64,000 nucleotides of DNA from Candidatus Omnitrophota bacterium (GTDB lineage: Bacteria > Omnitrophota > Gorgyraeia > Gygaellales > Profunditerraquicolaceae): contig JAQUQW010000002.1 of NCBI GenBank assembly GCA_028716245.1, positions 357,346-421,345 of the forward strand, in the 5' to 3' direction. A program made the translations under genes and the position numbers. Below the pieces are notes generated by a model, which saw only the letters and a list, made by a program, of their open reading frames with translations, did not search any database and was not told where the DNA came from. This document shows positions 25,531-56,563 of this stretch, one piece after another. Within the stretch, counting starts at the first letter, position 1. Every line of letters starts with the position of its first letter.

Positions 25531-25535
25531 GTATT

Positions 25536-33754: not shown

Positions 33755-33812
33755 AGTTTATTGATTTTTTTTAAGCAATCTGTGATAAAATATAGCAATC
33801 GCATTAGATTAT

Positions 33813-38990: not shown

Positions 38991-39388
38991 AAAAATATTA
39001 TCTGGCTATGGTTAGCGCATTCTGTTTTATCGTATTTGCTTGTTCATATTCTTTAGCGCTTGATGATGCGAAAACAAAACAACCTGAATTATCCGGCAAA
39101 ATTGAAAATAATGTAAGAGTGGTTAAAGTTAAGGCCTTCAGGTATGGCTATGAACCCGATCCGATTGTGGTAAAACTGGGAGAGAAAGTTCGTATTGTTG
39201 CTGCAACCGGCGATGTAACCCACGGCCTGGCTATATCCGAATTTAATATAAATTTGGTGGTCGAACCCGGCCAGACAGAAACTGCGGAATTCCTGGCCGA
39301 TAAGGAAGGCGTATTTACGGTATATTGTACTGTTTATTGCGGGGCCGGCCATACGCATATGCACGGAAAGCTTATTGTTGAGAAATAA
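38987..39388 (+). CDS. secreted cupredoxin-domain protein with CuA-type site
   Basis: Signal peptide; CuA ligand pattern CTVYCGAGHTHM (CxxxCxxxHxxM) plus upstream His. Confidence 0.6.
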   Translation: MKKYYLAMVSAFCFIVFACSYSLALDDAKTKQPELSGKIENNVRVVKVKAFRYGYEPDPIVVKLGEKVRIVAATGDVTHGLAISEFNINLVVEPGQTETAEFLADKEGVFTVYCTVYCGAGHTHMHGKLIVEK

Positions 39389-40403: not shown

Positions 40404-40605
40404 GAAAAGTTTTTTTGTTCCCATTCCATCAAACAAAATCTTGACAATTATAACTCTGGGTGTATATTTTAGTTAGTTAATAGTTTATAGTATTAACTAT
40501 ATAGGTACCCCGCGCCAAGTAAGGCACCCGACGCTAGTAGGTATTGCGTCGGTGTGCGCTAGGTAGCGCAAATTGCGCGGGTGTGCCCTTGTGGGCAAGG
40601 ACCAA

Positions 40606-41070
40606 ATGAATATCAAAGAATTCGCAAGTAAAGTGATCGAGTTGTCCCCCCAGATTATCAGAGGTTTTAAACAGTATGAAAATAACTATTTAACAAGAGG
40701 CGAAATCACTTTGCCTCAGTTTTGTGCGTTAGGCTATCTTGGATCTAATGGCAAGAGCAAGATGAATACCTTGGCTAAACACCTGAAGATTTCACCGGCT
40801 GCCTCAACCGGCCTAATTGATCGGCTTATGGCGCAAAAACTGGTGATTAGAATGGCGGATTCAGGAGACAGGCGGATAGTCTGGATAGAATTAACTGCCA
40901 AAGGAAGAGAAATAATTAAAAATATAAATAAACAAAAAACCGAAACATTAATAAGGGTCTTTGGAAAAATTTCTCCCAAGGACAGGGAGCATTACCTGAA
41001 TATTCTCCAACAGGTCGTAAAAATCACTGCCTCACTGCCGGATAGAAAATCACAGTTAATAAAATATTAA
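40606..41070 (+). CDS. MarR-family transcriptional regulator
   Basis: wHTH pattern ...LPQFCALGYL...MNTLAKHLKISPAASTGLIDRL...; palindromic operator candidates upstream. Confidence 0.7.
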   Translation: MNIKEFASKVIELSPQIIRGFKQYENNYLTRGEITLPQFCALGYLGSNGKSKMNTLAKHLKISPAASTGLIDRLMAQKLVIRMADSGDRRIVWIELTAKGREIIKNINKQKTETLIRVFGKISPKDREHYLNILQQVVKITASLPDRKSQLIKY

Positions 41071-41072
41071 GA

Positions 41073-42353: not shown

Positions 42354-45300
42354 CACTATCCGACATATCGATTAAAAATCCCGTTTTTGGCTGGATGCTC
42401 ATGATTGGCGTTTTGGTTTTTGGTTGGATTGGCTTCCAGCGTTTAGGGGTAAGCCAACTGCCGGATGTGGATTTTCCGGTTGTATCGGTTTCGGTAACCT
42501 GGGAAGGTGCTTCTCCGGAAGTTATGGAAACCGATGTAACCGATATTATTGAAAACGCGGTGATGAGCGTAGAGGGGTTGAAAGAAGTAACTTCTGTTTC
42601 AATGCAGGGGGTTACGCAAATCACGCTGGAATTTAATCTTAACCGCAATATCGATGTCGCTCTTCAAGAGGTCCAGGCCAAGATTGCCCAAGCCCAAAGA
42701 AATTTACCGCGGGATATCGACCCGCCGGTTATAAACAAGACTAACCCCGAAGACCAGCCGATAGTTTGGCTTGCTCTTTCCGGAGACCTTCCGATCAAAG
42801 ATTTATGCCGTTATACCAATGAAACTTTAAAAGATCAGTTTACGATTGTACCGGGGGTTGGCGATATCAGGTTAGGAGGTTATGTCGATCCGAATCTTCG
42901 GGTTTGGCTTGATGCTGAAAAGATGCAGCAAATGGAACTTACGGTTGAAGACGTGCTCAATGCGATAAACTTCCAGCACGCCGATATTCCTTCCGGATAT
43001 ATCGACTCAGGCCCCAAAGAAATTAATGTCCGGGTTTACGGTGAGGCTAAGACCCCGGAACAATTTGAAAATATAATTATACCGACACGCGTGCGCGGCG
43101 GCCCGATCTGGAAGAGCCTGCGTATCGGAGATGTCGGTAGTGTCGAAGACGGCCTGGCGGATATCCGCAGGATTTCGCGCAGCTGGGGGAAGACGGCAAT
43201 CGGCTTAGGGGTAATTAAACAACGCGGAACCAATGCCGTGGCCGTGGCAGACGGCGTAAAGCGTAAAATGGAGGAGCTTCAAAAAGGTCTGCCTGCCGGG
43301 ATGCACCTGAGCCTGGTTTTCGATACTACCCAATTTATTAAAGACTCAGTCAATGAGTTGAAGTTTAACCTGATGCTTTCGATCATCCTTACCTCGCTGG
43401 TCTGTTATTTATTTTTGGGCTCCTGGAGCGCCAACGTTAATGTTTTGTTGTCCATACCTTTCTCGATTATGGGAGCGTTTTTCATTCTTTATTTTGCAGG
43501 ATTTACTATTAATACATTTACGATGCTCGGGCTTTCCTTAGTTATCGGAATTGTTGTGGATGATGCCATAATGGTCCTGGAGAATATTTCGCGTTATCAG
43601 GAACGCGGGCTGGCGCGAAAAGAAGCGGCTTTGACCGGAGCCCGGGAGATAACCTTTGCAGCTATCGCGGCATCTATAGCGATTTTAGCGATTTTTATAC
43701 CGGTTATCTTTATGCAGGGGATTGTCGGTAAATTTTTCTTCCAGTTTGGAGTGACGATATCGGTAGCGGTAATTTTTTCTTTGGTCGAGGCCTTGACCAT
43801 TACGCCGATGAGATGCTCGCAATTTTTAGCTGTAGGGCATACTACAGGGCTGGGAAGAGCCATGGATAGGCTTATGAAATGGCTATCCGAAAGTTATCGT
43901 TTTACACTCAAGTTTATATTGGGGCGGCCCAAGACAATCCTGATTATTGCAATTTTTATTTTTGTTTCGTCTTTAGGCATAGCGATGATTTTGAAAAAAG
44001 AATTTATCCCTCCGCAAGATCAAAGCAGGTTTCTTGCCCGGATAACATTGCCTCTGGGCAGTTCTATCGAAAAAACCGATAATCTCTTTAAGGAAGCGGA
44101 GAAATTCCTAATGCAGCGTCCGGAAGTATTAACTTATTATAGCGCGGTAGGCAGTTTTTCCGGAGGACAGGTAAATCAGGGGTTTGTTTTTATTACGATG
44201 AAGCCCCCAAAAGAGAGACCGCTATTGAGCGGGCATCATGAGACTCAAGCTGAATTTATGCAGATAGTGCGCAAGCAATTCAGCGGTATTGCCGGCGTAG
44301 ATCGTGCGACGATTCAGGATCTTTCACTTACCGGTTTTACCGCGCAGCGCGGATTTCCCATTGAATTCACGGTCCGCGGCCCTGATTGGGAAAAATTAGG
44401 CCAATTGAGCCAGGAAATCATGAAGCGAATGAAGGCCTCGGGCGCGATGGTCGATGTTGATACCGATTATCAACTTGGCATGCCGGAACTGCAAGTTTAT
44501 CCGGATCGGCAGAAGGCGGCAGAGCATGGCGTAAGCGTCCTTTCTATAGCCGACACCATTAATGCTATGGTCGGAGGGGTCCGTAATGGTAAGTTCACCA
44601 GCCGCGGAAAACGTTATGATATCCGCGTGCGCTTAGCCGAAGCCGACCGTTCGAATACAAAAGATGTTCAAAGGATGTGGGTGCGTAATGAATTCGGAGA
44701 GGTAGTGCCGCTATCGGCAGTTGTGACTGCAAATGAAAAGCCTTCTTTATTTTCAATTACCCGTAAAAACCGCGAGCGCGCTGTTAGTATTTATGCAAAC
44801 CCGGCTTCCGGCCATTCTCAGCAAGAGGCTTTGGATGCTGTTTTAAAAATCGGCAAAGAAGTCCTTCCGGATGATTACCGCCTGGTTTTTTCCGGCGGTT
44901 CGCAGGCCTTCAAAGATTCTTTTCAGAGCCTGATCTTTGCCCTTATTTTGGGAATTTTTGTTGCTTATATGATCCTGGGAACGCAGTTTAACAGTTTTAT
45001 CTACCCTTTTACCGTACTTTTGGCATTACCTTTTAGCGTCACCGGAGCTTTTTTATTCCTGTTCCTAACTCACAATTCACTTAATCTTTATAGCATGATC
45101 GGCCTTATCCTGCTCATGGGCATTGTTAAGAAAAATTCTATCCTCCTGGTTGATTTTACTAATGTGCGGCGCAAACAGGGCATGGGAGTAAAAGAGGCGC
45201 TTTTAGATGCTTGCCCCATACGCCTCAGGCCTATTCTGATGACTTCGGTTGCCATGATTGCGGCCGCGACGCCGGCGGCACTGGCGATCGGCCCGGGTTC

Positions 45301-45433
45301 GGAGGTTATGGTTCCCATGGCTGTCGCGGTTATCGGAGGAGTTTTGTTCTCGACGATATTAACACTTTTTGTTGTTCCTTGCGCTTATGAAGTATTCTCA
45401 AAACTCGAACGCCATAAGGATAGGATTAATTGA
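42350..45433 (+). CDS. RND-superfamily efflux permease (AcrB/CzcA-like)
   Basis: 1027 aa, 12 TM with two large periplasmic loops; N-terminus MTLSDISIKNPVFGWMLM typical of RND. Confidence 0.85.
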   Translation: MTLSDISIKNPVFGWMLMIGVLVFGWIGFQRLGVSQLPDVDFPVVSVSVTWEGASPEVMETDVTDIIENAVMSVEGLKEVTSVSMQGVTQITLEFNLNRNIDVALQEVQAKIAQAQRNLPRDIDPPVINKTNPEDQPIVWLALSGDLPIKDLCRYTNETLKDQFTIVPGVGDIRLGGYVDPNLRVWLDAEKMQQMELTVEDVLNAINFQHADIPSGYIDSGPKEINVRVYGEAKTPEQFENIIIPTRVRGGPIWKSLRIGDVGSVEDGLADIRRISRSWGKTAIGLGVIKQRGTNAVAVADGVKRKMEELQKGLPAGMHLSLVFDTTQFIKDSVNELKFNLMLSIILTSLVCYLFLGSWSANVNVLLSIPFSIMGAFFILYFAGFTINTFTMLGLSLVIGIVVDDAIMVLENISRYQERGLARKEAALTGAREITFAAIAASIAILAIFIPVIFMQGIVGKFFFQFGVTISVAVIFSLVEALTITPMRCSQFLAVGHTTGLGRAMDRLMKWLSESYRFTLKFILGRPKTILIIAIFIFVSSLGIAMILKKEFIPPQDQSRFLARITLPLGSSIEKTDNLFKEAEKFLMQRPEVLTYYSAVGSFSGGQVNQGFVFITMKPPKERPLLSGHHETQAEFMQIVRKQFSGIAGVDRATIQDLSLTGFTAQRGFPIEFTVRGPDWEKLGQLSQEIMKRMKASGAMVDVDTDYQLGMPELQVYPDRQKAAEHGVSVLSIADTINAMVGGVRNGKFTSRGKRYDIRVRLAEADRSNTKDVQRMWVRNEFGEVVPLSAVVTANEKPSLFSITRKNRERAVSIYANPASGHSQQEALDAVLKIGKEVLPDDYRLVFSGGSQAFKDSFQSLIFALILGIFVAYMILGTQFNSFIYPFTVLLALPFSVTGAFLFLFLTHNSLNLYSMIGLILLMGIVKKNSILLVDFTNVRRKQGMGVKEALLDACPIRLRPILMTSVAMIAAATPAALAIGPGSEVMVPMAVAVIGGVLFSTILTLFVVPCAYEVFSKLERHKDRIN

Positions 45434-47584: not shown

Positions 47585-47677
47585 GAAATTTTCTTGATTT
47601 TAATTGGAAAAGTGATACTATTTTAAAATAGTAAAGCAGCTCCGAGTTTTAAGGTGGGTCTGGGCTAAGAAAATAAC

Positions 47678-47728
47678 GAGAAACCTTTGCCGGTGGGTTA
47701 TATCCACTGACAAAGGTTTCTCTTTTTA
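47678..47728 (+). terminator. intrinsic terminator after lemA
   Basis: GAGAAACCTTTG...CAAAGGTTTCTC 12-bp stem followed by TTTTTAT. Confidence 0.55.
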
Positions 47729-47747
47729 TAGAGGTTATTGGGTTAAA

Positions 47748-49574
47748 ATGTCGAATCTTTTACCGCAACAACTTTTTCAATTTGATCCGCTTTCACTATT
47801 CTTCCTTTGCGTCATCTTTATTGTTTGCCTGCCGTCAGCTATTTATTCCTTTGGCTACTTAAAAGGGAAATACTCATCTTTTAAAATAACCCTTTCCTGG
47901 TTTCTTCTGGTTATTTTTGTATTGTCCATGGCCGCTGTGGTCAGCGTAGGCAACGCCTTAATCTTTCTTGTTGCCTGGGAAATCATGTCTCTGGTTTCTT
48001 ACTTTCTGGTGGTTTTTGATACTACCCATGAAAAATCAATCCAGGCCGGCATGGTTTATATAATCATGACCCATATCGGAACGGCGTTTTTGGTAGCGGC
48101 GTTTTTGATCCTGTATAAACAGGCGCATTCATTTGATTTTATGGCGATAAAAAATGCCAGCCTTTCTATGCCGGCCCGGACAAAAGATATTGTTTTTTTG
48201 TTACTCTTAGCGGGCTTTGGGACAAAAGCCGGTATCGTGCCTTTACATGTTTGGCTGCCTTACGCTCACCCGCAGGCCCCCAGCCATATTTCAAGTATTA
48301 TGTCCGGGGTAATGATTAAGACCGCAATCTACGGGATAATCCGGTTTGTCATTTTCTTGCTGGGCGTGAATTCTTCCTGGTGGGGAATCCTGATTTTAAC
48401 CTTAGCGGTAATTTCTTGTCTGGTGGGAATAATTTACGCGCTCATGGATCGCGACATCAAGAGGCTTCTGGCTTATTCCAGCGTGGAAAATATCGGAATA
48501 ATCCTGTTGGGGGTGGGCCTGGCAATGCTATTTATATCTAAGAACATGCCGTATTTAGCCGTATTTTCGCTAATTGCCGGATTGTATCATTTGGTAAATC
48601 ACGCGATTTTTAAAGGGCTTTTATTTTTATGCGTCGGCAGCGTATATAAAGCTACCGGAACCCGCAATATTGAAAAGTTAGGGGGCCTGATTAAGAAAAT
48701 GCCGCAGACCGCCGCTTATTTTTTGCTCGGGGCAATGGCGATTTCCGCCCTGCCTCCTTTGAATGGTTTTGTGAGCGAATGGCTTACCTTGCAGGCATTC
48801 TTTTTAGGCGCGTTTAATTCAGCAGGAGGGATGAAGCTTTTCTTGGGGATTTGCGCGGCGCTATTGGCTTTAACCGGCGGCTTGGCCGCTGCCTGTTTTG
48901 TCAAGGCCTTTGGAGTGGCGTTTCTTGGCCTGCCAAGGAGCCATTATGCTGAAAGCGCAAGAGAAGTATCTTTATCGATGAGGCTGGGCATGTTTTTCTT
49001 ATCGCTGCTTGCGGTTATTTTTGGTTTAGCCGCAAGTTTAATCATTAAATTATTGGCCAGGGTTGCCGGTACGGCAATAAATATTGATATTAGCAGCATG
49101 AATTTTTCTTTAAATAATTTCACCCTAAGCCCGCAGATCGGTAAAAATACCTATCTTTCTGCGCCTTTACTTGGGTTATGGCTGATTGTTTTTGGGGTTG
49201 CCGGTTTTGCCATCTATAAAATATTTGCCCGGGGCAGGCGGGTTTATAAAACCTGGGATTGCGGCTACTACAAATTGGACGCGCGTAATGAATACACCGC
49301 GACCGCTTTTTCTAAGCCGTTCAGGATTGCTTTTAGTTTCTTTTTGCTGCCTTACCGCAAAACGCAAAAGATCCGGGAGTCATTTTATCACGTTAAATCG
49401 ATCACCTATGAAACCTACACAACTAAGGTTTTTAAAAAGTACATTTATGACCCTTTGCTGGCTTTAATTTTTAAATCCGCCAAGTCAATGCGGCGCCTTC
49501 AGCCGGGCAGCATCCATCTGTATCTGGGTTATATTTTTGTTACTTTATTATTGTTAATTATATTTATGCGTTAA
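47748..49574 (+). CDS. group-4 hydrogenase-like complex antiporter-type membrane subunit (HyfB/NuoL-like)
   Basis: 608-aa polytopic protein with conserved NuoL/M/N-type TM-region motifs. Confidence 0.65.
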   Translation: MSNLLPQQLFQFDPLSLFFLCVIFIVCLPSAIYSFGYLKGKYSSFKITLSWFLLVIFVLSMAAVVSVGNALIFLVAWEIMSLVSYFLVVFDTTHEKSIQAGMVYIIMTHIGTAFLVAAFLILYKQAHSFDFMAIKNASLSMPARTKDIVFLLLLAGFGTKAGIVPLHVWLPYAHPQAPSHISSIMSGVMIKTAIYGIIRFVIFLLGVNSSWWGILILTLAVISCLVGIIYALMDRDIKRLLAYSSVENIGIILLGVGLAMLFISKNMPYLAVFSLIAGLYHLVNHAIFKGLLFLCVGSVYKATGTRNIEKLGGLIKKMPQTAAYFLLGAMAISALPPLNGFVSEWLTLQAFFLGAFNSAGGMKLFLGICAALLALTGGLAAACFVKAFGVAFLGLPRSHYAESAREVSLSMRLGMFFLSLLAVIFGLAASLIIKLLARVAGTAINIDISSMNFSLNNFTLSPQIGKNTYLSAPLLGLWLIVFGVAGFAIYKIFARGRRVYKTWDCGYYKLDARNEYTATAFSKPFRIAFSFFLLPYRKTQKIRESFYHVKSITYETYTTKVFKKYIYDPLLALIFKSAKSMRRLQPGSIHLYLGYIFVTLLLLIIFMR

Positions 49575-49583
49575 TTCTAAAAA

Positions 49584-50477
49584 ATGGAAATAATCATAAT
49601 CATCGCCCAATTAATTTTATTTATCGTAATCGCCCCGCTTTTAAGCGGCTTGATCTCTAAGCTTAAGAATAATATCCGCATGCGCAAAGGCCAGAGTATT
49701 TTTCAGCCGTATTATAATTTAGCAAAGCTTTTTTCTAAAGAAGAGGTAGTTTCGGAAACCGCCTCCTGGATATTTAAGGTTACCCCGTTTATCGTGTTTT
49801 CTGCGATGCTTACCGCGGCAATACTCATTCCGGTGTTTATCGCCAGCCCCCTGCATCGCATGGGAGATTTTTTAGCCCTGATATTTATTTTTGCTTTAGG
49901 CCGGTTTTTTATGGCCTTGGCGGCATTAGACACCGGCAGTTCTTTCGGCGGCCTGGGCGCGTCAAGAGAAATGTTTATTTCAAGCTTGGTTGAACCGGCG
50001 CTTTGTTTAGTCGTGTTTTCCATATTTTTACAATTTGGTTCCACGGATATCTCGGTGTTTGGCGCGGCTCATCCGGTATCGGTTTGTTCGATTGTCGCTG
50101 CTTTTGCTTTATTTATGGTTACGCTTGCCGAAACTTCCCGGATCCCCGTGGATAATCAGGAGACGCACCTGGAATTGACCATGGTGCATGAGGCGATGGC
50201 TTTGGAATATTCGGGAAGATTCCTGGCTTTCATAGAGCTGTCTTCACATATAAAACAGATGATTTTATTTTTTCTGATTGCGCAGTTAATTTTTCCGGTT
50301 AATTTTTCCGGTTTTTGGATCGGGTGGTATTTGGCGCGGATAATGATCATCGTGATTGCTGTGGCGCTGGTTGAGGTTGCGGTTGCCAAGATGCGCTTAT
50401 TCAGAGTAACGGATTTTTTGGGAATTGCTTTTGTTCTAGGGATGATCGCCGTAGTCTGCGCGGTGTTAGGAGTTTAA
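49584..50477 (+). CDS. group-4 hydrogenase-like complex membrane subunit (HyfC/HycD/NuoH-like)
   Basis: 297-aa NuoH-like polytopic protein; position after the NuoL-like gene. Confidence 0.65.
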   Translation: MEIIIIIAQLILFIVIAPLLSGLISKLKNNIRMRKGQSIFQPYYNLAKLFSKEEVVSETASWIFKVTPFIVFSAMLTAAILIPVFIASPLHRMGDFLALIFIFALGRFFMALAALDTGSSFGGLGASREMFISSLVEPALCLVVFSIFLQFGSTDISVFGAAHPVSVCSIVAAFALFMVTLAETSRIPVDNQETHLELTMVHEAMALEYSGRFLAFIELSSHIKQMILFFLIAQLIFPVNFSGFWIGWYLARIMIIVIAVALVEVAVAKMRLFRVTDFLGIAFVLGMIAVVCAVLGV

Positions 50478-50478
50478 G

Positions 50479-51114
50479 ATGAAGGAAATTATCCTGCTGG
50501 GTATTTTGATCTCAACATATTTTATGATTATTGCCAAAAGGATGCCGGCTTTGATCCGTTCTTTCCGATATCAGTCATTTTTTTTATTCCTGGCAACTTT
50601 TGTCATCGCCTGGGGGGAAGATCAGCCGGATCTGTATATTATCTGCGGACTCCTGTTTATTATAAAAGTATCGCTGATTCCTTATTTATTGTATAGGATT
50701 ACCAATAAGATAAAGGCAGGCCAGGATTTGGGATTGATTGTAAATTCCCAATTATCTTTATTGTGCGCTTTAGGTTTTACGTATTTGGCCTGGATTTTTT
50801 CCGCGCACCTGTTTTCTGACCTAAACCAGGCGATGGTGAGTATTCTGGCGGTAGCTTTTTTTATGGTTTTAACGGGGTTATTTTTAATGATTTCCAGGAT
50901 GACCGCGCTTGCCCAGGTGGTCGGCCTTCTGGTTATGGAAAATGGTTTATTTCTGCTTGCTTCCACTGTTTCGGGAGGTATGCCATTTTTTGTCGAAATT
51001 GCCATATTTTTTGATGTGTTTATCAGCGTAGTGATCATGGGTTTTTTTGTTTATCGGATCAATAAGCTCTTTACGCACATTGACGTAGATAAGCTTTCGC
51101 ATTTAAGAGGATAA
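50479..51114 (+). CDS. small membrane subunit (HyfE-like)
   Basis: 211 aa, 6-7 TM; operon position. Confidence 0.5.
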   Translation: MKEIILLGILISTYFMIIAKRMPALIRSFRYQSFFLFLATFVIAWGEDQPDLYIICGLLFIIKVSLIPYLLYRITNKIKAGQDLGLIVNSQLSLLCALGFTYLAWIFSAHLFSDLNQAMVSILAVAFFMVLTGLFLMISRMTALAQVVGLLVMENGLFLLASTVSGGMPFFVEIAIFFDVFISVVIMGFFVYRINKLFTHIDVDKLSHLRG

Positions 51115-51117
51115 GTT

Positions 51118-52575
51118 ATGCAGGTATTTTTCATTTTAGGAATTCCGTTTGTACTTGCCATAAGCGCCCTGTTGATTAAAAACAGGAAGATCCTGGGGTT
51201 GCTGAATTGCCTGGGGTATCTGGCGGTTTTATTTTTTAGTACTGTCCTGCTAAAACAAATAGCTTTATCGGAAGGCACCAGGGCATATTTGGGTTTTATC
51301 TACCTGGATACTTTAAGCGTATTTTTTATCCTGGTTACCTCCGTCGTTGCTTTGGCTGTGGCGTTATATTCTATCGGCTATCTAAAAAAAGATATAGAAG
51401 AGGGCCGGATATCGGAAAGAAAATCCAGGATCTATTACCTTCTTTTTAATTTATTTTGCTGTTCGATGTTTGTTGTCCCGGCAGTTAATAATCTGGGGAT
51501 ACTTTGGGTAGCAATTGAGATGACGACTTTACTTTCGGCTTTTTTGGTAGGATTTTATAATACCAAGAAGTCGATTGAAGCAGCCTGGAAGTATATTATT
51601 ATTTGTTCGGTGGGGATAATTTTTGCGCTCCTGGGCACAATTCTTTTTTCTTACGCATTCTCCATCTCCGGTCTTTCCAAAAGCCTGAATTGGTCGGATA
51701 TTGTCCCGGTTGCCCACATTTTGGATAAAGATATCTTAAAAATCGCTTTTATTTTTATTTTAGTCGGCTATGGGACAAAGGCCGGTTTGGCGCCGATGCA
51801 TACCTGGCTGCCCGACGCCCACAGCCAGGCGCCTGCTCCGATCAGCGCGTTACTTTCCGGGGTATTATTAAAGATGGCCATTTACGCTATCTTAAGGTTC
51901 GGTATTATCACGATCAAGGGCGTGGGTTTTGCTTATTTTTCCAATTTAATGATTTTACTGGGCGTAGTTTCTTTGGTGATATCCAGCGGATTTATTCTGG
52001 TGCAAAAGGACTTTAAAAGGCTGCTTGCTTATAGCAGTATCGAGCATATCGGGATAATTGCCATTGGTTTTGGTTTAGGCACTCCTTTGGCGGTTGCCGG
52101 AGCAGCTTTGCATGTATTTAATCACGCGGTAGCTAAGTCGCTGATGTTTTTTGGCGCCGGCAATATTGTCGGTGTTTACAAAAAGCATAATCTGAATGCT
52201 ATCCGGGGAGTGATCAAGGTCTTGCCGTTTACGGGCATTGCGGTATTGATCGGCGTTTTTGTGCTTACGGGATTTCCCCCGTTTTCGTTATTTGTAAGCG
52301 AGATGATGATTATAATTTCCGCTTTTACCAATGGTTCATATTTGGTCGGGGCTTTGTTGTTATTATTTCTTGCGGTTATTTTTGGAGGGTTCATTTATCA
52401 TTTTGGAAAAATGCTTTTTGGCAATCTTCCTAAAGGTATGACTAGGGCCCAGGAGCCGTTAAGTACAAAAATTGCGTTCATCTTTTTGTTTTTTCCCGTT
52501 TGCGCTTTAGGGATTACGTTGTTATTTATAAATAAGGATTGGTTATGGCTGGCCCAGAGATTATTACAGAGATAA
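51118..52575 (+). CDS. antiporter-type membrane subunit (HyfF/NuoM/N-like)
   Basis: 485 aa; conserved motifs WLPDAHSQAP / MFFGAGN. Confidence 0.65.
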   Translation: MQVFFILGIPFVLAISALLIKNRKILGLLNCLGYLAVLFFSTVLLKQIALSEGTRAYLGFIYLDTLSVFFILVTSVVALAVALYSIGYLKKDIEEGRISERKSRIYYLLFNLFCCSMFVVPAVNNLGILWVAIEMTTLLSAFLVGFYNTKKSIEAAWKYIIICSVGIIFALLGTILFSYAFSISGLSKSLNWSDIVPVAHILDKDILKIAFIFILVGYGTKAGLAPMHTWLPDAHSQAPAPISALLSGVLLKMAIYAILRFGIITIKGVGFAYFSNLMILLGVVSLVISSGFILVQKDFKRLLAYSSIEHIGIIAIGFGLGTPLAVAGAALHVFNHAVAKSLMFFGAGNIVGVYKKHNLNAIRGVIKVLPFTGIAVLIGVFVLTGFPPFSLFVSEMMIIISAFTNGSYLVGALLLLFLAVIFGGFIYHFGKMLFGNLPKGMTRAQEPLSTKIAFIFLFFPVCALGITLLFINKDWLWLAQRLLQR

Positions 52576-54122
52576 AAAATAAAATTCCGGATTTTGCTCC
52601 TCTTGCGGTATTACAAAATTACCCGGATGAAATTAATATTAAGGTCAGAGCGCAGGTTTTTAAGGATACTTGCCTGGCCCTGCATAAAATCCTTTCTTCT
52701 CCGGTTGCGGCGCTTTTCGCTTTGGATGAGCGCAAGGAAAGCGGGTGTTTTGAAATTAATTCCATATTTGTGGATTTTAAAAATAGCCGTTGGATCACGG
52801 TCAATATGGATATCCCGCAGGAAAACCCCGGTTTTGATTCACTGGCAAAAAGTATGTATTCAGCCAGCCTCTTTGAAAGAGAGATTTGGGAGATGTTTGG
52901 GATCCAGCCAAAAGGCCATCCTGACCTAAGGAGGCTAAGGCTGCATAATGAAGTTTGGGCCAACGAGAATTATCCCTTACGTAAAGATTTCCGGAAAATG
53001 CAATCCGGTAATTTAAGTGATTATAAGTTTGGCCGGGTAGAAGGGGATGGTATATTTGAAGTTCCGGTTGGGCCGGTGCATGCCGGGATTATCGGGCCGG
53101 GGCATTTCAGGTTCAGCGTTGCCGGAGAGCCGATTATAAACTTGGAGCTTCGTATGGGGTTTGCGCATCGGGGAGTAGAGAAGCTTTTTGAGGGTAAGCT
53201 TTGCGATGACGCGCTTGGGCTGTCAGAATGTGTTTGCGGGGATTCAAGCTTTGCGCACAGCCTGGCATTCACTCAGGCCATCGAGAAGATCTCGGGTGTA
53301 GTGATTCCGGAGCGAGCGGCTTATTTAAGAGGGATTTTTTTAGAGTTGGAGCGTATGTATAATCATATAAATGATATGGGAGGAATCGCCACTGATGTGG
53401 GTTTTAGTTTTCCCTCGGTTTTTGCTTCGATCATTAAAGAGGCGATCTTGCAATTAAACGCCCGGCTTACCGGAAATAGGTATCTGAGAAAGGTTAATAC
53501 CATCGGAGGAGTTTTAGCAAATATTGATGAAACCAAGAAACAGGTGCTCCTCGATTCGATTAAGCATTTAAAGCGGGATTTTAATGAATTGGTTAAAATG
53601 TTATATTCCAGCGTTTCTTTCATGGATAGAGTGGATACCACCGGGGTTTTGCGCCGGAAAACCGCTGAGGACTTGGGTGTTGTCGGGCTCACCGCGCGGG
53701 CATCAGGTATTCCTGCGGATTTGAGAAAATATTTTTCCGGGTTATACAAGGAAGCTAAATTTAAAATGGCGACGCAGGAATCCGGAGATGTTTTGGCCAG
53801 ACTGCGCGTCAGGATCTCTGAATTTCAAGAATCCTGCCGTTTGATCGAAGAATTTGCGGCAAGGCTTAATAAAGGCGGAAAATTAAAAACTGAGCCGGAA
53901 TTAAAGGCAGGCAGCGCTTTGGGTTATGCCGAAGGTTGGAGGGGGCCGGTTTTATACTGGTTTAAAATAGACCCCGCGGGCTTGATCCAGAGGTGCAAAA
54001 TAGTTGACCCGTCTTTTCTTAACTGGCAGGGGCTGGCCTATGCCGTATTAGGCAATATTATCCCGGATTTTCCGTTGTGTAACAAAAGCTTTGATTTGTC
54101 CTACGCAGGAAACGATCTCTAA
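52539..54122 (+). CDS. fused NuoC-NuoD-like large subunit (HycE/HyfG-like) with non-canonical NiFe-site cysteines
   Basis: NuoD/large-subunit motifs GPVHAGIIGPGHFRF, RMGFAHRGVEK; expected RxCGxCxxxH is ECVCGDSSFAH; expected C-terminal DPCxxCxxR is DFPLCNKSF (one Cys). Confidence 0.7.
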   Translation: MVMAGPEIITEIKNKIPDFAPLAVLQNYPDEINIKVRAQVFKDTCLALHKILSSPVAALFALDERKESGCFEINSIFVDFKNSRWITVNMDIPQENPGFDSLAKSMYSASLFEREIWEMFGIQPKGHPDLRRLRLHNEVWANENYPLRKDFRKMQSGNLSDYKFGRVEGDGIFEVPVGPVHAGIIGPGHFRFSVAGEPIINLELRMGFAHRGVEKLFEGKLCDDALGLSECVCGDSSFAHSLAFTQAIEKISGVVIPERAAYLRGIFLELERMYNHINDMGGIATDVGFSFPSVFASIIKEAILQLNARLTGNRYLRKVNTIGGVLANIDETKKQVLLDSIKHLKRDFNELVKMLYSSVSFMDRVDTTGVLRRKTAEDLGVVGLTARASGIPADLRKYFSGLYKEAKFKMATQESGDVLARLRVRISEFQESCRLIEEFAARLNKGGKLKTEPELKAGSALGYAEGWRGPVLYWFKIDPAGLIQRCKIVDPSFLNWQGLAYAVLGNIIPDFPLCNKSFDLSYAGNDL

Positions 54123-54125
54123 ATT

Positions 54126-54638
54126 ATGCTAAATATACTAAAAAACAGGATCTTAAAAGGTATCGTCACCAGGCATATTAGGCCGGAATTATCTAAAGAG
54201 ATAGAGGCGGCTGGTTCTGAATTACGGTCTTTGATCCGGAAAAAATTCGGCAGATCTTTACATATACGCGAAATCGACACGGGTTCTTGCGGAGCCTGTG
54301 AATCCGAGATCATTGCGGCAAATAACCCGATTTATGACTTACAGCGATTCGGGATTAATTTCGTCGCCTCGCCCCGTCATGCCGACTGTCTTTTAGTTAC
54401 CGGCCCCGTATCTAAAAATATGTTGATTGCCCTCAAAAAAACCTATGCAGCCATGCCTGAGCCTAAATTTGTCATCACCTGTGGAGATTGCGCTTTAGAC
54501 GGAGGGTCGTTTAAAGGTTCTTATTACGTGGAAGGCGCTGTAAAGGATATACTGCCGGTGGTCTTGCATATTTCAGGCTGTCCCCCAAGTCCGCTGCAAA
54601 TTATATTATCCCTGAATATTCTATTGCAGAAAGCCTAA
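54126..54638 (+). CDS. NuoB-like small subunit (HycG/HyfI-like) with [4Fe-4S] cysteines
   Basis: GSCGACE, GDCALDGG, SGCPPSP motifs. Confidence 0.75.
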   Translation: MLNILKNRILKGIVTRHIRPELSKEIEAAGSELRSLIRKKFGRSLHIREIDTGSCGACESEIIAANNPIYDLQRFGINFVASPRHADCLLVTGPVSKNMLIALKKTYAAMPEPKFVITCGDCALDGGSFKGSYYVEGAVKDILPVVLHISGCPPSPLQIILSLNILLQKA

Positions 54639-54656
54639 AAAATACTTGACATTTAT

Positions 54657-55019
54657 TTGAGGATAGGTTATACTTCTATTGTTATGGAACTATCAAACTA
54701 CCTAAAGATATTTAAAGCTTTATCCAACGAACAGCGGCTTAAGATTTTTATTATGATTTACAAAGGCTGTTGTTCGACGCAGGGCAAGAAAGGTTCGGAA
54801 TTCCGGATAGAAAATAAAGCCTGTTGCCCGGTAGCCGGGGTTATTGAAAAAGCTTTTACCAAGGTATGCGCGTGTATGCATCTTTCAAAGTCGACAGTCT
54901 CACATCATTTTAAAGAACTGCAAAACGCCGGGCTGATTACCTGTGAACGGGATGGGCAAATGTATCGTTGCAAGGTTAATGATGAAACAATTAATTTGAT
55001 CAAAGATTTCCTGAAATAA
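54657..55019 (+). CDS. ArsR/SmtB-family metal(loid)-responsive repressor with Cys-rich insert
   Basis: wHTH ...LSKSTVSHHFKELQNAGLI...; CC pairs at GCCSTQG and KACCPV plus CACMH. Confidence 0.6.
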   Translation: MRIGYTSIVMELSNYLKIFKALSNEQRLKIFIMIYKGCCSTQGKKGSEFRIENKACCPVAGVIEKAFTKVCACMHLSKSTVSHHFKELQNAGLITCERDGQMYRCKVNDETINLIKDFLK

Positions 55020-55120
55020 TTTTTTTGTCTTTATAGTTCGACAGTACTGGAACAATAGAATGCGCCCTGCGCTATCGGAAGCGCAGGCATGCCCTTGTGG
55101 GCAAAAAGGAGGTGATTGGA

Positions 55121-55291
55121 ATGTTTAACTGTTGCGGCAAAGATGGAAAGTCTATTTGCGAACAGCTTGATTGTAATGCAAAAGAAACGCCAAAAGGCAT
55201 TCAAGTTGAAATAAGCGCAAAAGACCCTGCTAAGACGGAATCGTTGAAGGCCTTGATAAAAGCTCTTCATGATTTCTGCGGATGTTCTTAA
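55121..55291 (+). CDS. small Cys-rich protein (56 aa)
   Basis: GGAGG RBS 8 nt upstream; MFNCCGK...CEQLDC...FCGCS; no family assignable. Confidence 0.3.
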   Translation: MFNCCGKDGKSICEQLDCNAKETPKGIQVEISAKDPAKTESLKALIKALHDFCGCS

Positions 55292-55379
55292 GGTAGATAA
55301 TGTCGGGAGGTGGGCCCGCTTCCCGGCATTTCTCGAATCTAAGATGCTATTAAAAAATATTTAGAACCGGGAGTAAAAA

Positions 55380-55883
55380 ATGACTGAGAAAAAACGCTCT
55401 GGAATTAATCGGCGGGGAGTTAGCAAATATAAAACTGTCAGAATAGCAAAAACCGATAATGTCTGTCCGATGTGCGAAGATTACGCCAAGAAACATGCGG
55501 CTAAACCAATTGCGGTAATATGTTGCGAGGGCGCTTGTTTACGCGGTGAAATGGCCAGGCAGGCGGCCAATATTTTATGCCATTCTCTTGCCTCTGAGAA
55601 AACCGCCCGGATTTGTTTAGGGGGCGCTTTTACTAAAGATACAGGACAAAGAAATTTAGTGAAAAACGCTAAAAGGGTCATTGTACTGGAAGGTTGTTTT
55701 ATCAAGTGCGCTTCACGGATGATGGCGGGAGTAGTTAAGAAGTTTAATCCAGAGGTCATTATAGCCGATGAGCTTTATGATTTTAACCGGAATCTCTTCA
55801 GCATCGATGAAATGCCTGAAGATCAAATAAAAATTCAGGCAAAAGAAGTGGCAAAAAAAGTTGCTGAAAAATTATATAAATAA
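55380..55883 (+). CDS. putative zinc-binding DGC-domain protein
   Basis: CPMC ... VICCEGACLRGEMARQAA ... VLEGCFIKCASRMM resembles the DGC-domain cysteine pattern as I recall it. Confidence 0.45.
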   Translation: MTEKKRSGINRRGVSKYKTVRIAKTDNVCPMCEDYAKKHAAKPIAVICCEGACLRGEMARQAANILCHSLASEKTARICLGGAFTKDTGQRNLVKNAKRVIVLEGCFIKCASRMMAGVVKKFNPEVIIADELYDFNRNLFSIDEMPEDQIKIQAKEVAKKVAEKLYK

Positions 55884-55897
55884 CTGCGGAGAGAAAT

Positions 55898-56563
55898 ATG
55901 GAAAATCTAAAAAGTAAAGATGGAATAATTGAGGCGCCTGTAGAAGTGGATAGAATAAGAGAAAAATATAATTGGATGAGCAAAATTTATTTTCTGGCAA
56001 CCCCGCTGGAAAAGAAAGCCCGGATGAGAGAAATTGAATTGGCGCAAATCAAATCCAATGATAAAGTTTTGAAAATCGCCGTGGGTCTCGGACAATCATT
56101 CTTGGAATTTCTAAAAAAAGTTGACACAAAGAATATCGTCTATGGGATTGATTTGACCCCGGCTATGATTGAGAAAACAAGAAAACGGGTAATGCGAAAC
56201 GGTTTTTCTAATTTTGAATTGAAAGAGGGCGACGCCAGGCATTTGCCATTTCCAGGTGAAAGTTTTGATGTTCTTTATAATAGCTATATGTTGGATTTTA
56301 TTCCGCTTGCAGATTTTTCTGTCGTGCTGAGAGAGTTCTACCGGGTTCTTAAGAAAGAGGGACGCTTGGTATTGGTTAACCTTAGCAAAAGAGATAGCTC
56401 CCTGGTTTTTTACGAAAGGCCATATAAATTAAGTCCATATTTTTGGGGAGGTTGCCGTCCTGTTTTAATGGAGTCTTTCGTAAAGGAGGCGGGGTTCAGA
56501 AATGTTATAAGAGAGATCCCAAGGAATCTTTTGCCATCAGAGATTGTTAGTGGATTAAAGTGA
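55898..56563 (+). CDS. class I SAM-dependent methyltransferase (Methyltransf_11/UbiE-like)
   Basis: Motif I VLKIAVGLGQ, motif post-I IDLTPAMI, motif II FDVLYNSYML. Confidence 0.65.
   Translation: MENLKSKDGIIEAPVEVDRIREKYNWMSKIYFLATPLEKKARMREIELAQIKSNDKVLKIAVGLGQSFLEFLKKVDTKNIVYGIDLTPAMIEKTRKRVMRNGFSNFELKEGDARHLPFPGESFDVLYNSYMLDFIPLADFSVVLREFYRVLKKEGRLVLVNLSKRDSSLVFYERPYKLSPYFWGGCRPVLMESFVKEAGFRNVIREIPRNLLPSEIVSGLK

What the first reader, a model, noticed from the sequence alone, without database searches (positions are those of the whole stretch)
47748..54638. Six-gene group-4-hydrogenase-like membrane complex whose catalytic subunit lacks canonical NiFe cysteine motifs and that has no ferredoxin-like subunit
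- The operon encodes NuoL-like, NuoH-like, small-membrane, NuoM/N-like, fused NuoC-D-like large and NuoB-like small subunits. This is the Hyf/Hyc/Ech/Mbh architecture.
- In the large subunit the N-terminal NiFe motif RxCGxCxxxH is replaced by ECVCGDSSFAH, a CxC spacing.
- The C-terminal DPCxxCxxR motif is replaced by DFPLCNKSF, which has one Cys.
- No HycF/NuoI-like 2x[4Fe-4S] subunit and no formate dehydrogenase or maturation genes are nearby.
- This points to an energy-converting hydrogenase-related (Ehr-type) complex of unknown substrate rather than a true hydrogenase.
Basis: partly seen in the sequence, partly recalled or inferred. Interest (0 to 1): 0.55.

Follow-up and report, generated by a model that had tools for sequence, protein, structure and literature searches.

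The report
Hydrogenase-like membrane complex without hydrogenase site
This is a well-conserved six-gene relative of membrane hydrogenases and complex I (an "Ehr" complex) from an uncultured Omnitrophota bacterium; it has lost its nickel-iron site, and it sits behind a conserved RNA leader that no family in Rfam 15 matches and that could help show what such complexes are for.

Summary
It is an Ehr-type (energy-converting hydrogenase-related) complex, not a [NiFe] hydrogenase. Alignment to E. coli HycE shows three of the four Ni-ligand cysteines replaced. The fourth is Ser, Ala or Thr in most relatives.

The NuoB-like subunit keeps all four [4Fe-4S] ligands. Both antiporter-like subunits and the NuoH-like coupling loop are intact. 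dN/dS is 0.08-0.15 for all six genes.

The same cassette occurs in at least 596 species across many phyla and has been described repeatedly as Ehr, function unknown. This makes it a new member of a known kind.

New details for the Omnitrophota/Saganbacteria clade:
- an otherwise invariant Glu is Gly;
- EhrA lacks about 60-70 N-terminal residues;
- there is no NuoI-like module.

Unexpectedly, within an Omnitrophota subclade the operon is preceded by a conserved promoter plus a roughly 120-nt leader. The leader has an invariant 22-nt block and a covarying terminator, has no Rfam match, and lies almost exclusively upstream of Ehr. It once lies upstream of a DUF486 transporter gene that often follows the operon. 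It is a candidate riboswitch or attenuator.

The parts
47594..47621 (+). Conserved sigma-70-type promoter: -35 TTGATT (47594-47599) and extended -10 TGATACTAT (47613-47621).
   Evidence: TTGAT and TG-TA---T are invariant in seven loci retrieved by protein homology, whose upstream genes differ (A2). The generic scan did not list it because only 8 of 12 consensus positions match.
47628..47747 (+). 5' leader RNA of the operon (start inferred from the promoter). Hairpin 1 is 47638-47666 and holds the invariant block CCGAGTTTTAAGGTGGGTCTGG (47642-47663). An A-rich linker follows. The terminator hairpin is 47678-47722 (invariant 5' arm GAGAAACCTTTG at 47678-47689, 3' arm at 47711-47722), with a T-run at 47723-47727 and an RBS AGAGG at 47730-47734.
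   Evidence: 94% of cells pair; the covariation score is 0.236 against 0.162 in shuffles (0 of 500 reach it). The covariance model scores 131.6 bits on + and 38.8 on -. No Rfam match is better than E=2.5. MFE is -37.2 kcal/mol, z = -2.97.
47748..49574 (+). ehrA: HyfB/HycC/NuoL-like antiporter subunit, 608 aa. It lacks the first 60-70 residues (inferred to be two TM helices) found in HycC, HyfB and Ehr of other clades.
   Evidence: NCBIfam HyfB 650.6 bits, profile positions 75-667. HycC 7z0s_C E=3.8e-74, query 11-532 against 72-563, with TM5 Glu, TM7 Lys, TM8 Lys, TM11 His/Lys and TM12 Glu present. N-terminal offset analysis. No upstream ORF could supply the missing helices.
49584..50477 (+). 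ehrB: HycD/NuoH-like subunit, 297 aa, with the conserved coupling loop laETsRiPvDnqEthlE.
   Evidence: PF00146 at 2.8e-34. HycD 7z0s_D at 1.6e-37, and alignment to ND1.
50479..51114 (+). ehrC: HyfE-like small membrane subunit, 211 aa, with a weakly NuoK-like C-terminal half.
   Evidence: NCBIfam HyfE at 3.8e-23, below its cut-off. PF00420 at 3.7e-4, below its cut-off. No PDB sequence homologue.
51118..52575 (+). ehrD: HyfF/NuoM-N-like antiporter subunit, 485 aa, with a complete set of channel residues.
   Evidence: NCBIfam HyfF 456.5 bits. In the alignment to MbhH, TM5 E, TM7 K, TM8 K, TM11 H/K and TM12 E are all present.
52545..54122 (+). ehrL: fused NuoC-NuoD/HycE-like large subunit, 525 aa. 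G184 (53094-53096) replaces the otherwise invariant Glu. The L1 equivalent E228-H238 is 53226-53258. The L2 equivalent D517-L525 is 54093-54119.
   Evidence: HycE 7z0s_E at E=2e-63. AF2 model pLDDT 89.4, pTM 0.92. Foldseek TM 0.93/0.92 to HycE and 0.89/0.80 to E. coli NuoCD. Motif states.
54126..54638 (+). ehrS: NuoB/HycG/MbhJ-like small subunit, 170 aa. The [4Fe-4S] ligands are C55, C58, C122 and C152 (codons 54288-54290, 54297-54299, 54489-54491, 54579-54581). There is no NuoI-like extension.
   Evidence: MbhJ at 4.4e-31 and HycG at 2.9e-30, with all four ligands aligned. The ligands are kept in 60-64 of 67 family members. Length and motif survey.
54646..54674 (+). Near-consensus promoter TTGACA-17-TATACT just after the ehrS stop. 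It marks the 3' boundary of the operon and drives the unrelated ArsR-like gene.
   Evidence: 11 of 12 consensus matches. The ArsR, DGC-domain and methyltransferase genes (54657-56563) are absent at this position in the closest relative, L005.

Best explanation
The operon encodes a six-subunit Ehr-type complex (EhrA-B-C-D-L-S). It descends from Hyf/group-4f-like membrane [NiFe] hydrogenases and has lost the NiFe site, so it cannot make or use H2.

Shown here:
- The peripheral arm keeps one [4Fe-4S] cluster site on EhrS.
- The HycE fold is intact.
- The NuoH-like coupling loop is conserved.
- Both antiporter-like subunits have full sets of channel residues.
- All six genes are under strong purifying selection.

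Inferred: the complex still works as a redox-coupled ion (H+ or Na+) translocator. A soluble low-potential donor, most plausibly ferredoxin, would reduce the EhrS cluster directly, because no NuoI-like subunit covers it. The electron would pass to an unknown non-proton, probably non-quinone acceptor in the remodelled pocket lined by C/S231, D233, S234, S519, G522 and G184. The conformational change would be relayed through EhrB and EhrC to EhrA and EhrD.

Inferred from sequence and covariation: in this Omnitrophota subclade, transcription is gated by a conserved leader. An invariant block can either fold on itself or pair with the 5' arm of an intrinsic terminator. The leader is therefore a riboswitch or a protein-dependent attenuator whose effector is unknown.
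For: Identity as Ehr:
- Subunit homologies.
- Ni-ligand positions lost.
- Gene order A-B-C-D-L-S, or S-A-B-C-D-L, conserved in most of the roughly 85 loci examined, across many phyla.
- Literature descriptions of Ehr with the same composition.

Functionality:
- dN/dS of 0.08-0.15 for all six genes against a 90%-identical relative.
- 7790 of 8000 scored candidates have E<=1e-10.
- At least 596 species matched.

Redox competence:
- Four Fe-S ligands align to those of MbhJ and HycG and are kept in about 90% of family members.
- Invariant SGD, Y520, G522 and D524 at the former active site.

Coupling machinery:
- EhrB ET-R-P-D-E loop.
- E/K/K/H-K/E sets in EhrA and EhrD.

Direct donor docking:
- No NuoI-like gene in the cassette or the window.
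- The same absence in about half of the Ehr cassettes.

Non-quinone acceptor:
- Nqo4 His38 corresponds to Ile and Tyr87 to Gly.
- The cassette also occurs in CPR bacteria.
- Published Ehr-carrying Margulisbacteria lacked a full quinone biosynthesis pathway.

Leader.
Against: - No donor, acceptor or activity has been shown for any Ehr complex.
- No conserved redox partner gene lies next to the cassette.
- The clade has also lost the Glu that every other Ehr and hydrogenase in the sample keeps (69 of 69). It also lacks the NuoI module. The redox chemistry may therefore be vestigial here.
- Fe-S ligands can be kept for structural reasons.
- The leader's hairpin 1 shows little covariation, because its core is invariant, so an RNA aptamer is not proven. 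The hairpin could bind a protein.
- The genome outside the window was not examined for ferredoxins, quinones or hyp genes.
Confidence: 0.6

Rival explanations
1. The complex is a redox-independent, or only redox-gated, Mrp-like cation/proton antiporter. EhrA, C and D would do the transport. The EhrL/S/B cap would be a structural or regulatory remnant, and its Fe-S cluster at most a redox sensor.
For: - No electron-input module and no conserved partner.
- No catalytic or quinone-binding residues.
- Clade-specific loss of the invariant Glu.
- Two complete antiporter-like subunits.
- The leader's regulon includes a small DUF486/DMT-superfamily transporter. This fits an ion or small-molecule homeostasis role.
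- Na+/H+ antiporters and genes annotated as formate hydrogen lyase are among the commonest riboswitch-controlled stress genes in other bacteria.
Against: - EhrL and EhrS are as constrained as the membrane subunits (dN/dS 0.15 and 0.11).
- The former active site carries invariant residues across phyla.
- The Fe-S ligands and the NuoH-type coupling loop are kept.
- Known Mrp antiporters work without such an arm.
Confidence: 0.25
2. The complex is a minimal complex-I-like ferredoxin:quinone oxidoreductase. This is the reading implied when PF00346 is used as a marker for 'respiratory complex I' in Omnitrophota genomes.
For: - EhrL passes PF00346 with 125 bits against a cut-off of 24.
- NCBI annotates relatives as NADH-quinone oxidoreductase subunit C.
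- Fold TM 0.89 to E. coli NuoCD.
- Seymour et al. scored complex I in Omnitrophota by PF00346.
- A UbiE-family methyltransferase, DoxX and a cupredoxin-like protein are encoded in the window.
Against: - The quinone-ligating His38 and Tyr87 of Nqo4 correspond to Ile and Gly.
- The best matches for every subunit are Hyf, Hyc or Mbh, not Nuo.
- NuoA, J, I, E, F and G are absent from the cassette.
- The same cassette occurs in CPR bacteria.
- Published Ehr-carrying genomes lacked a full quinone biosynthesis pathway.
- The UbiE-like gene is part of an insertion missing in the closest relative.
Confidence: 0.1
3. The complex is a true group-4 [NiFe] hydrogenase that uses non-canonical ligands (C229, C231, C512).
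For: - The window protein has three cysteines near the site.
- PF00374 gives a weak N-terminal hit at 28.5 bits.
- True hydrogenases with the same gene order are nested in the family.
Against: - C231 is Ser, Ala or Thr in most clade members and C229 is Arg, Lys or Ser in several.
- Both L2 cysteines are absent in all Cys-less members.
- The proton-relay Glu is Gly.
- No hyp genes lie in the window.
Confidence: 0.02
4. The cluster is a decaying, non-functional relic, as a recent paper assumed for Geobacter Ehr.
For: One paper states that Ehr is non-functional and evolves under relaxed selection in G. sulfurreducens KN400. One metagenomic copy has a frameshift in ehrA (L104).
Against: - dN/dS of 0.08-0.15 in all six genes.
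- Intact ORFs and synteny across many phyla.
- A dedicated conserved promoter and leader.
- All Ehr subunits were abundant in Geobacter proteomes grown on formate.
Confidence: 0.02

Closest known systems
Ehr (Ech-hydrogenase-related / energy-converting hydrogenase-related) complexes, e.g. Geobacter sulfurreducens GSU0739-0745 (EhrA-1, A-2, B, C, D, L, S). Named by Coppi 2005 and surveyed by Marreiros et al. 2013; neither paper is held, so they are cited through.
   Same: Same subunit set: NuoL/HyfB-like, HycD-like, HyfE-like, a second antiporter-like subunit, a large subunit without the NiFe motifs, and a small subunit. Function is unknown. Several sampled loci show the Geobacter-like duplicated A subunit (L027, L028, L031).
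   Different: This clade has Gly for the invariant Glu184, an N-terminally shortened EhrA and a dedicated leader RNA. No Geobacter sequence was compared directly; the link rests on the published descriptions.
Ehr of Saganbacteria, Riflemargulisbacteria and Melainabacteria (Matheus Carnevali et al. 2019, PMC6349859).
   Same: A Saganbacteria MAG (L011) has an EhrL 57-58% identical to the window's and falls in the same Gly clade. The paper describes a fused NuoC-D, HyfB, HyfF, NuoH and HyfE subunits, and missing Ni ligands.
   Different: The Margulisbacteria Ehr has NuoI fused to NuoB and was proposed to partner with FdhA and NuoE/F. Here EhrS is 170 aa with no NuoI domain, and no fdhA or nuoEF lies nearby. 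One Omnitrophota relative (L001) does have Rex, NuoE/F-like and [FeFe]-hydrogenase genes downstream.
E. coli formate hydrogenlyase (Hyc, PDB 7Z0S) and hydrogenase-4 (Hyf), group 4a [NiFe] hydrogenases.
   Same: These are the best sequence and structure matches for EhrL (E=2e-63, TM 0.93), EhrA, EhrB and EhrS. The cassette equals HyfB, C, E, F, G and I.
   Different: - HyfA, D, H (ferredoxin-like), J, the formate dehydrogenase and the maturation protease are missing.
- The Ni ligands and the Glu are lost.
- There is no C-terminal extension.
- EhrA keeps the TM7 Lys that HycC lacks.
True [NiFe] hydrogenases nested in the same family. They may correspond to HydDB group 4f; the literature places Ehr close to 4f. 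Examples: Thermincola ferriacetica L046, Desulfotomaculum L062.
   Same: Same A-B-C-D-L-S gene order. About 39-42% identity to EhrL. They share GPxHAGIIEPGHFR and DFPLINKSF.
   Different: They keep CGxC and CYxCxDR, and their small subunits are longer (236-290 aa); most carry Fe-S (CxxCxxCxxxC) motifs.
Mycobacterial hyc-like operon. Rv0082-Rv0087 of M. tuberculosis is regulated by the ArsR-type Rv0081. A Mycolicibacter kumamotonensis locus (L081) was sampled here.
   Same: L081 has a Cys-less EhrL (ERISGDTSAGH ... NLSYAGNDL), the order S ... B. D L, and an ArsR-type gene just upstream. ArsR-type neighbours recur in 10 of about 85 loci.
   Different: That M. tuberculosis Rv0087 itself lacks the cysteines is my recollection and was not tested. 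In the window the ArsR-like gene has its own promoter and belongs to an insertion that the closest relative lacks.
Pyrococcus furiosus MBS/Mbx (PDB 6U8Y) and MBH (6CFW).
   Same: They are complex-I-like respiratory complexes with hydrogenase-derived arms. MBS also has an altered NiFe site and a non-proton substrate. MbhJ, MbhL, MbhH and MbhM all align well.
   Different: They have 13-14 subunits including a NuoI-like subunit and an Mrp module. MbsL is a weaker match than HycE or MbhL (3.4e-25).

Membership tests
Ehr (energy-converting hydrogenase-related) complex | One cluster encoding homologues of the group-4 hydrogenase large and small subunits, a NuoH/HycD-like subunit and Mrp/NuoL-type antiporter-like subunits. 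| tested here: met
   A tight operon with spacings of 9, 1, 3, -31 and 3 nt.
Ehr (energy-converting hydrogenase-related) complex | The large subunit lacks the cysteine ligands of the L1 (RxCGxCxxxH) and L2 (DPCxxCxxH/R) motifs. | tested here: met
   Alignment to HycE: C231 kept, then S234, S519 and G522. C231 is Ser, Ala or Thr in most of 120 close homologues and in other clade members.
Ehr (energy-converting hydrogenase-related) complex | Groups phylogenetically with other Cys-less sequences, next to group 4f, rather than with characterised hydrogenase groups. | tested here: inconclusive
   In a midpoint-rooted BLOSUM62 NJ tree of 81 sequences the window falls inside the Cys-less radiation. 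Eight NiFe-bearing sequences form one nested clade. No HydDB run or ML tree with named references was possible.
Group 4 membrane-bound [NiFe] hydrogenase (Hyc/Hyf/Ech/Mbh) | Four Ni-Fe ligating cysteines in the large subunit. | tested here: not met
Group 4 membrane-bound [NiFe] hydrogenase (Hyc/Hyf/Ech/Mbh) | Conserved Glu next to the active site in the GPxHxxxxEP loop (the proton-relay Glu; HycE 'sdEp', MbhL 'leEp'). | tested here: not met
   G184 here and Gly or Pro in all 12 clade members. It is Glu in 62 of 62 other Ehr and 7 of 7 NiFe sequences.
Group 4 membrane-bound [NiFe] hydrogenase (Hyc/Hyf/Ech/Mbh) | A 2x[4Fe-4S] HycF/EchF/NuoI-like electron-transfer subunit. | tested here: not met
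   None in the cassette or the window. EhrS is 170 aa with no Fer4 motif.
Group 4 membrane-bound [NiFe] hydrogenase (Hyc/Hyf/Ech/Mbh) | hyp maturation genes in the genome. | not testable with these tools
   None in the 64-kb window. The rest of the genome is not available; the exact protein is not on record in the contig index.
Respiratory complex I / NDH-1 | Quinone-headgroup ligands His38 and Tyr87 (T. thermophilus Nqo4 numbering) in the NuoD subunit. | tested here: not met
   In the alignment to 2fug_4, His38 corresponds to I183 and Tyr87 to G232.
Respiratory complex I / NDH-1 | At least 11 subunits, including NuoA, I, J, K and three antiporter-like subunits. | tested here: not met
   Six genes and two antiporter-like subunits. 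The flanking genes are unrelated.
Mrp-type cation/proton antiporter | MrpA-G membrane subunits only, with no hydrogenase-derived peripheral arm. | tested here: not met
   EhrL, EhrS and EhrB are present and conserved. Only the antiporter-like subunits are shared.
Riboswitch (for the leader 47628-47747) | A conserved structured aptamer supported by covariation. | tested here: inconclusive
   Hairpin 1 has 9 pairs; 5 never vary and 3 show changes on both sides. The core is invariant, partly because retrieval used the core as the pattern. It was, however, already invariant in the 7 loci retrieved by protein homology.
Riboswitch (for the leader 47628-47747) | An expression platform with mutually exclusive structures. 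| tested here: met
   A covarying terminator plus a T-run. The 5' arm is invariant while the 3' arm varies. In truncated transcripts the block pairs with the 5' arm instead.
Riboswitch (for the leader 47628-47747) | Direct binding of a small-molecule or ion ligand. | not testable with these tools
   This needs in-line probing or transcription assays. There is no Rfam family match.

The most novel reading that the evidence does not exclude
The conserved leader (47628-47747) would be a new riboswitch class dedicated to Ehr operons and DUF486 transporters in Omnitrophota. Its ligand, for example an ion or a small toxic or redox-related molecule, would show the physiological signal for Ehr. That would give the first experimental handle on what the widespread Ehr complexes do. 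Ehr would then be a stress or homeostasis ion pump rather than a core respiratory enzyme. The Gly184, NuoI-less, short-EhrA clade would be its most reduced form.
Probability: 0.25. Interest if true: 0.8.

Novelty: new member of a known kind. Interest (0 to 1): 0.45.

Why it matters
Ehr complexes are very widespread. They have had no known function since they were named in 2005.

This locus does not solve that problem, but it contributes three things.

1. It shows that Omnitrophota carry a distinct, strongly constrained and maximally stripped-down form with a single Fe-S cluster, no Glu184 and no NuoI. That form sharpens the question of whether Ehr is still a redox enzyme.
2. It warns that PF00346-based calls of "respiratory complex I" in Omnitrophota, and NCBI's "NADH-quinone oxidoreductase subunit C" names, can be this complex instead. 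That would change metabolic reconstructions.
3. The dedicated leader RNA can be tested in vitro without culturing the organism. Its effector would indicate when the cell needs Ehr.

Tried and rejected
- Source contig: an exact-sequence look-up of the window's EhrL found nothing on record, so the organism is inferred only from relatives named Omnitrophota.
- Conserved redox partner: flanks of about 85 loci were clustered. The top cluster was an artefact of antisense ORFs in high-GC genomes. Response regulators are generic. Only ArsR-type regulators (10 loci) and small ferredoxins (4 loci) recur.
- ArsR-like gene as regulator of the operon: rejected. It has its own near-consensus promoter and sits in an insertion that the closest relative lacks.
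- LemA/TPM neighbours: seen in only three loci.
- The Saganbacteria locus L011 was checked for the published FDH-Ehr link. SNF2 helicases lie upstream and no fdhA is nearby.
- Fluoride or any other known riboswitch upstream of Ehr: none at Rfam gathering score in 26 loci from other phyla and none in the window's leader.
- Copies of the leader elsewhere: the covariance model found one copy per locus. It found none in the 58%-identity Omnitrophota loci L008 and L010 or in other phyla, apart from weak terminator-like hits.
- Leader mini-ORF (GUG GGU CUG GGC UAA): not conserved by inspection, so dropped.
- Literature: one search matched the author name 'Ehrt', one was swamped by cryo-EM papers, and 'DUF486' matched DUF4861. 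The Coppi 2005 and Marreiros 2013 papers are not held.
- EhrC structure prediction: not attempted, because the locus-derived sequences needed for an alignment are not accepted by the tool.

Full report
**What is there.** Six same-strand ORFs fill 47748-54638, separated by 9, 1, 3, -31 and 3 nt. Profile and PDB searches identify them as follows.
- EhrA (47748-49574): HyfB/HycC-like. NCBIfam HyfB scores 650.6 bits; HycC E=3.8e-74.
- EhrB (49584-50477): HycD/NuoH-like, E=1.6e-37 to HycD.
- EhrC (50479-51114): HyfE-like, 3.8e-23, below the curated cut-off.
- EhrD (51118-52575): HyfF-like, 456.5 bits.
- EhrL (52545-54122): a fused NuoC-NuoD/HycE-like protein, E=2e-63 to HycE. All close homologues are 525 aa, so the start is ATG 52545.
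- EhrS (54126-54638): NuoB/MbhJ/HycG-like, 4.4e-31.

An AlphaFold2 model of EhrL is confident (pLDDT 89.4, pTM 0.92). Its best structural neighbour is HycE (TM 0.93/0.92), followed by E. coli NuoCD. The cassette therefore corresponds to HyfB-C-E-F-G-I, without HyfA, D, H and J.

**The active site.**
- In the HMMER alignment to HycE, 'drvCgiCgfah' aligns with 'eCvCgdSsfah'. C231 occupies the first Ni-ligand position, the second ligand is Ser234, and the conserved Arg is Cys229.
- At the C-terminus, HycE 'sldpCysCt' aligns with 'sfdlSyaGn', so both L2 cysteines are gone.
DFPLCNKSF is a separate conserved segment that true hydrogenases of this family also have just before CYxCxDR.
- Among 120 close homologues the commonest L1 string is ECVSGDSSFAH, so even C231 is dispensable.
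- The Glu of the GPxHxxxxEP loop, taken here to be the proton-relay Glu of hydrogenases, is Gly184.
- The quinone ligands of complex I (Nqo4 His38 and Tyr87) correspond to Ile183 and Gly232.
- The protein ends at the L2 position, so there is no protease-cleaved extension.

On this evidence the complex is neither a hydrogenase nor a canonical quinone reductase.

**What is retained.**
- EhrS aligns all four [4Fe-4S] ligands (C55, C58, C122, C152) with those of MbhJ and HycG. They are kept in 60-64 of 67 family members.
- EhrB keeps the ET-R-P-D-E loop shared with HycD and ND1.
- EhrA and EhrD both have the TM5 Glu, TM7 Lys, TM8 Lys, TM11 His/Lys and TM12 Glu of proton-conducting antiporter-like subunits.
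- Against a 90%-identical relative (L005), dN/dS is 0.08-0.15 for all six genes.

The cluster is not a relic.

**How common it is.**
- The word-indexed search scored 8000 candidates, and 7790 had E<=1e-10. The best 120 are 70-90% identical, and those that carry a name are mostly named Omnitrophota.
- The exhaustive search of 50%-identity representatives gave 932 clusters at E<=1e-30. Most of the best full-length ones carry the Cys-less signature 'SGD ... NLSYSGNDL', with true hydrogenases ('CGxC ... LCYxCxDR') interleaved.
They include Omnitrophota, Saganbacteria, Nitrospirota, Acidobacteriota, Rokubacteria, Verrucomicrobiota, CPR, Thaumarchaeota, Firmicutes and Actinobacteria such as Mycolicibacter.
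- The order A-B-C-D-L-S, or S-A-B-C-D-L, holds across these phyla.
- In a rough NJ tree, eight NiFe-bearing sequences form one clade nested among the Cys-less ones. The window belongs to a monophyletic clade of Omnitrophota, a Saganbacteria MAG and two MAGs labelled Planctomycetales.

**Relation to the literature.** This is what has been called Ehr. Published accounts describe:
- clusters related to group 4 hydrogenases but lacking the Ni/Fe-coordinating residues;
- Geobacter EhrA, B, C, L and S;
- "six syntenic genes" with nuoH, nuoL, HyfE and HyfB homology and no L1/L2 motifs in Sulfobacillus;
- Ehr close to group 4f in Nitrospira;
- Ehr in CPR bacteria.

In all of them the function is stated to be unknown.

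**The missing ferredoxin-like subunit.** No NuoI/HycF-like gene is in the cassette or among the ORFs scanned in the 64-kb window. The same holds in all close relatives. Across the family there are three states:
- NuoI motifs fused to the small subunit, mainly in Firmicutes, as published for Margulisbacteria and Firmicutes;
- a separate ferredoxin gene of about 110 aa between L and S, in 4 loci;
- neither, with a small subunit of about 160-200 aa, in about half of the loci.

This absence is real but typical of a large part of the family.

**Clade-specific features.** Three things set the Omnitrophota/Saganbacteria clade apart.
- Glu184 is Gly or Pro in 12 of 12 members, against Glu in 62 of 62 other Ehr and 7 of 7 NiFe sequences. 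It is the only such change at a universally conserved polar position.
- EhrA starts 57-75 residues later than in most other clades, HycC and HyfB. No upstream ORF could supply the missing helices.
- There is no NuoI module.

**Neighbourhood.** The flanks differ between relatives, and clustering of neighbours found no conserved partner.
- One relative has Rex, NuoE/F-like and [FeFe]-hydrogenase genes downstream (L001).
- Another has a second, apparently genuine group-4 cluster with a Fer4 subunit 7 kb away (L004).
- ArsR-type regulators recur (10 loci). This recalls Rv0081 next to Rv0082-87 in M. tuberculosis.
- The window's ArsR-like gene has its own promoter. With the DGC-domain and UbiE-family methyltransferase genes, it forms an insertion that the closest relative lacks.

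**An unexpected leader.**
- The 164-nt gap before ehrA is strongly conserved in seven loci that were retrieved through protein homology and have different upstream genes. It holds a -35 TTGATT, an extended -10, an invariant 22-nt block (47642-47663), an invariant GAGAAACCTT, a variable hairpin top, a T-run and the RBS.
- An exact-pattern scan of metagenomes found 62 further loci. The gene downstream is EhrA in 63 of 65 testable cases. One exception is a frameshifted ehrA and the other is a DUF486/DMT_6 gene.
- A DUF486 gene also follows ehrS, on the same strand, in 7 of 16 leader-bearing loci with enough sequence (directly in six, about 1 kb further in one). The window has none.
- The block is unchanged even where EhrA has diverged to 56-59% identity.
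- RNAalifold and pair counts support a 5' hairpin and a terminator. 94% of cells pair, the covariation score exceeds all 500 shuffles, slid controls collapse, and all four upper-stem pairs show changes on both sides.
- The helices contain conserved G-U pairs, and the covariance model scores 131.6 bits on the + strand against 38.8 on the - strand. This points to RNA rather than a DNA operator.
- The terminator's 5' arm is invariant while its 3' partner varies. In transcripts cut before the 3' arm, the block pairs with that 5' arm. This is the layout of an attenuator or riboswitch.
- No Rfam 15 family matches better than E=2.5. The model finds no copies in other phyla or in the 58%-identity Omnitrophota loci.
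- Whether the effector is a ligand or a protein cannot be decided here.

**Mechanism: shown and inferred.**
- Shown: loss of the NiFe and quinone residues; retention of the Fe-S ligands, the coupling loop and the channel residues; purifying selection; and a dedicated transcriptional control element.
- Inferred as most likely: a ferredoxin-type donor reduces the exposed EhrS cluster, and an unknown acceptor in the Ser/Asp-lined pocket takes the electron. The energy would drive ion translocation through EhrA and EhrD.
- Main rival: in this stripped-down clade the arm may no longer turn over electrons, and the complex may act as a cation/proton antiporter, perhaps redox-gated. The DUF486 link is compatible with that reading. 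So is the literature note that Na+/H+ antiporters and genes annotated as formate hydrogen lyase are among the commonest genes controlled by fluoride riboswitches. No fluoride riboswitch was found at 26 Ehr loci.

**Verdict.** The complex is a new member of a known, functionally unsolved family. The added value is the definition of a reduced Omnitrophota clade and the leader RNA, which offers a practical route to the function. There is also an annotation caveat: EhrL passes PF00346, the marker one study used to score "complex I" in Omnitrophota.

Noticed in passing
window 47594-47747: A conserved promoter and a roughly 120-nt leader lie upstream of ehrA. The leader has an invariant 22-nt block and a covarying intrinsic terminator, with no Rfam match. 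It is found almost only upstream of Ehr operons of one Omnitrophota subclade, and once upstream of a DUF486 transporter gene.
   Followed up: yes
L003 12106-12459; L115 4037-4444; also L087, L091, L092, L112, L114, L130, L140: A DUF486/DMT_6 (PF04342) small membrane protein is encoded downstream of ehrS on the same strand in 7 of 16 leader-bearing loci (directly in six, about 1 kb further in L092). In L115 it is itself preceded by the leader. It is absent from the window and its function is unknown.
   Followed up: partly
window 21779-34000 (context 20517-47000): A serine recombinase (21779-23248, - strand) is followed by a low-GC (34-37%) island. The island encodes two DNA methylases, a BfiI-like restriction enzyme, an OLD-family AAA/TOPRIM nuclease and a Metallophos plus SbcC-like pair, and looks like an integrated defence island. 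In relative L003 the DUF748 gene (window 20517-21737) lies just upstream of the Ehr operon, so about 26 kb appear to be inserted here.
   Followed up: partly
window 54657-56563: An ArsR/SmtB-like regulator with a Cys-rich N-terminal half, a DGC-domain protein and a UbiE-family methyltransferase form an insertion absent from the closest relative (L005). The regulator has its own near-consensus promoter at 54646-54674, so its real start is probably ATG 54684.
   Followed up: partly
L035 and L066 (Nitrospirota MAGs): Two complete Ehr cassettes lie in tandem. Their large subunits belong to different subclades ('SGTSSFAH ... SGTDM' and 'SGDTTVAH ... NQSYSGNDL').
   Followed up: no
L004 18559-21578: An Omnitrophota genome with the Ehr cassette also has, 7 kb downstream, a second group-4-like cluster (Fer4_11, NADHdh, Oxidored_q6, Complex1_30kDa, NiFeSe_Hases). 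A Fer4_22 protein and a DHODB-type FAD/Fe-S protein precede it. This cluster may be a genuine hydrogenase.
   Followed up: no
L001 12205-21578: In one relative the Ehr operon is followed by Rex, NuoE-like, a 1048-aa NuoF/GltD-like fusion and [FeFe]-hydrogenase genes, then a second such set. This adjacency was seen only once.
   Followed up: no
window 38607-39388: DoxX and a COX2/cupredoxin-like domain protein sit next to a chromate-transporter-like gene and an RND efflux set (40573-45433). These are possible hints of quinone- or copper-linked electron transfer in this organism.
   Followed up: no
window 58197-63404: A 1735-aa ORF. Its homologue in L005 carries Pkinase, AAA_16, GAF, HisKA and HATPase_c domains and is followed by a response regulator.
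   Followed up: no
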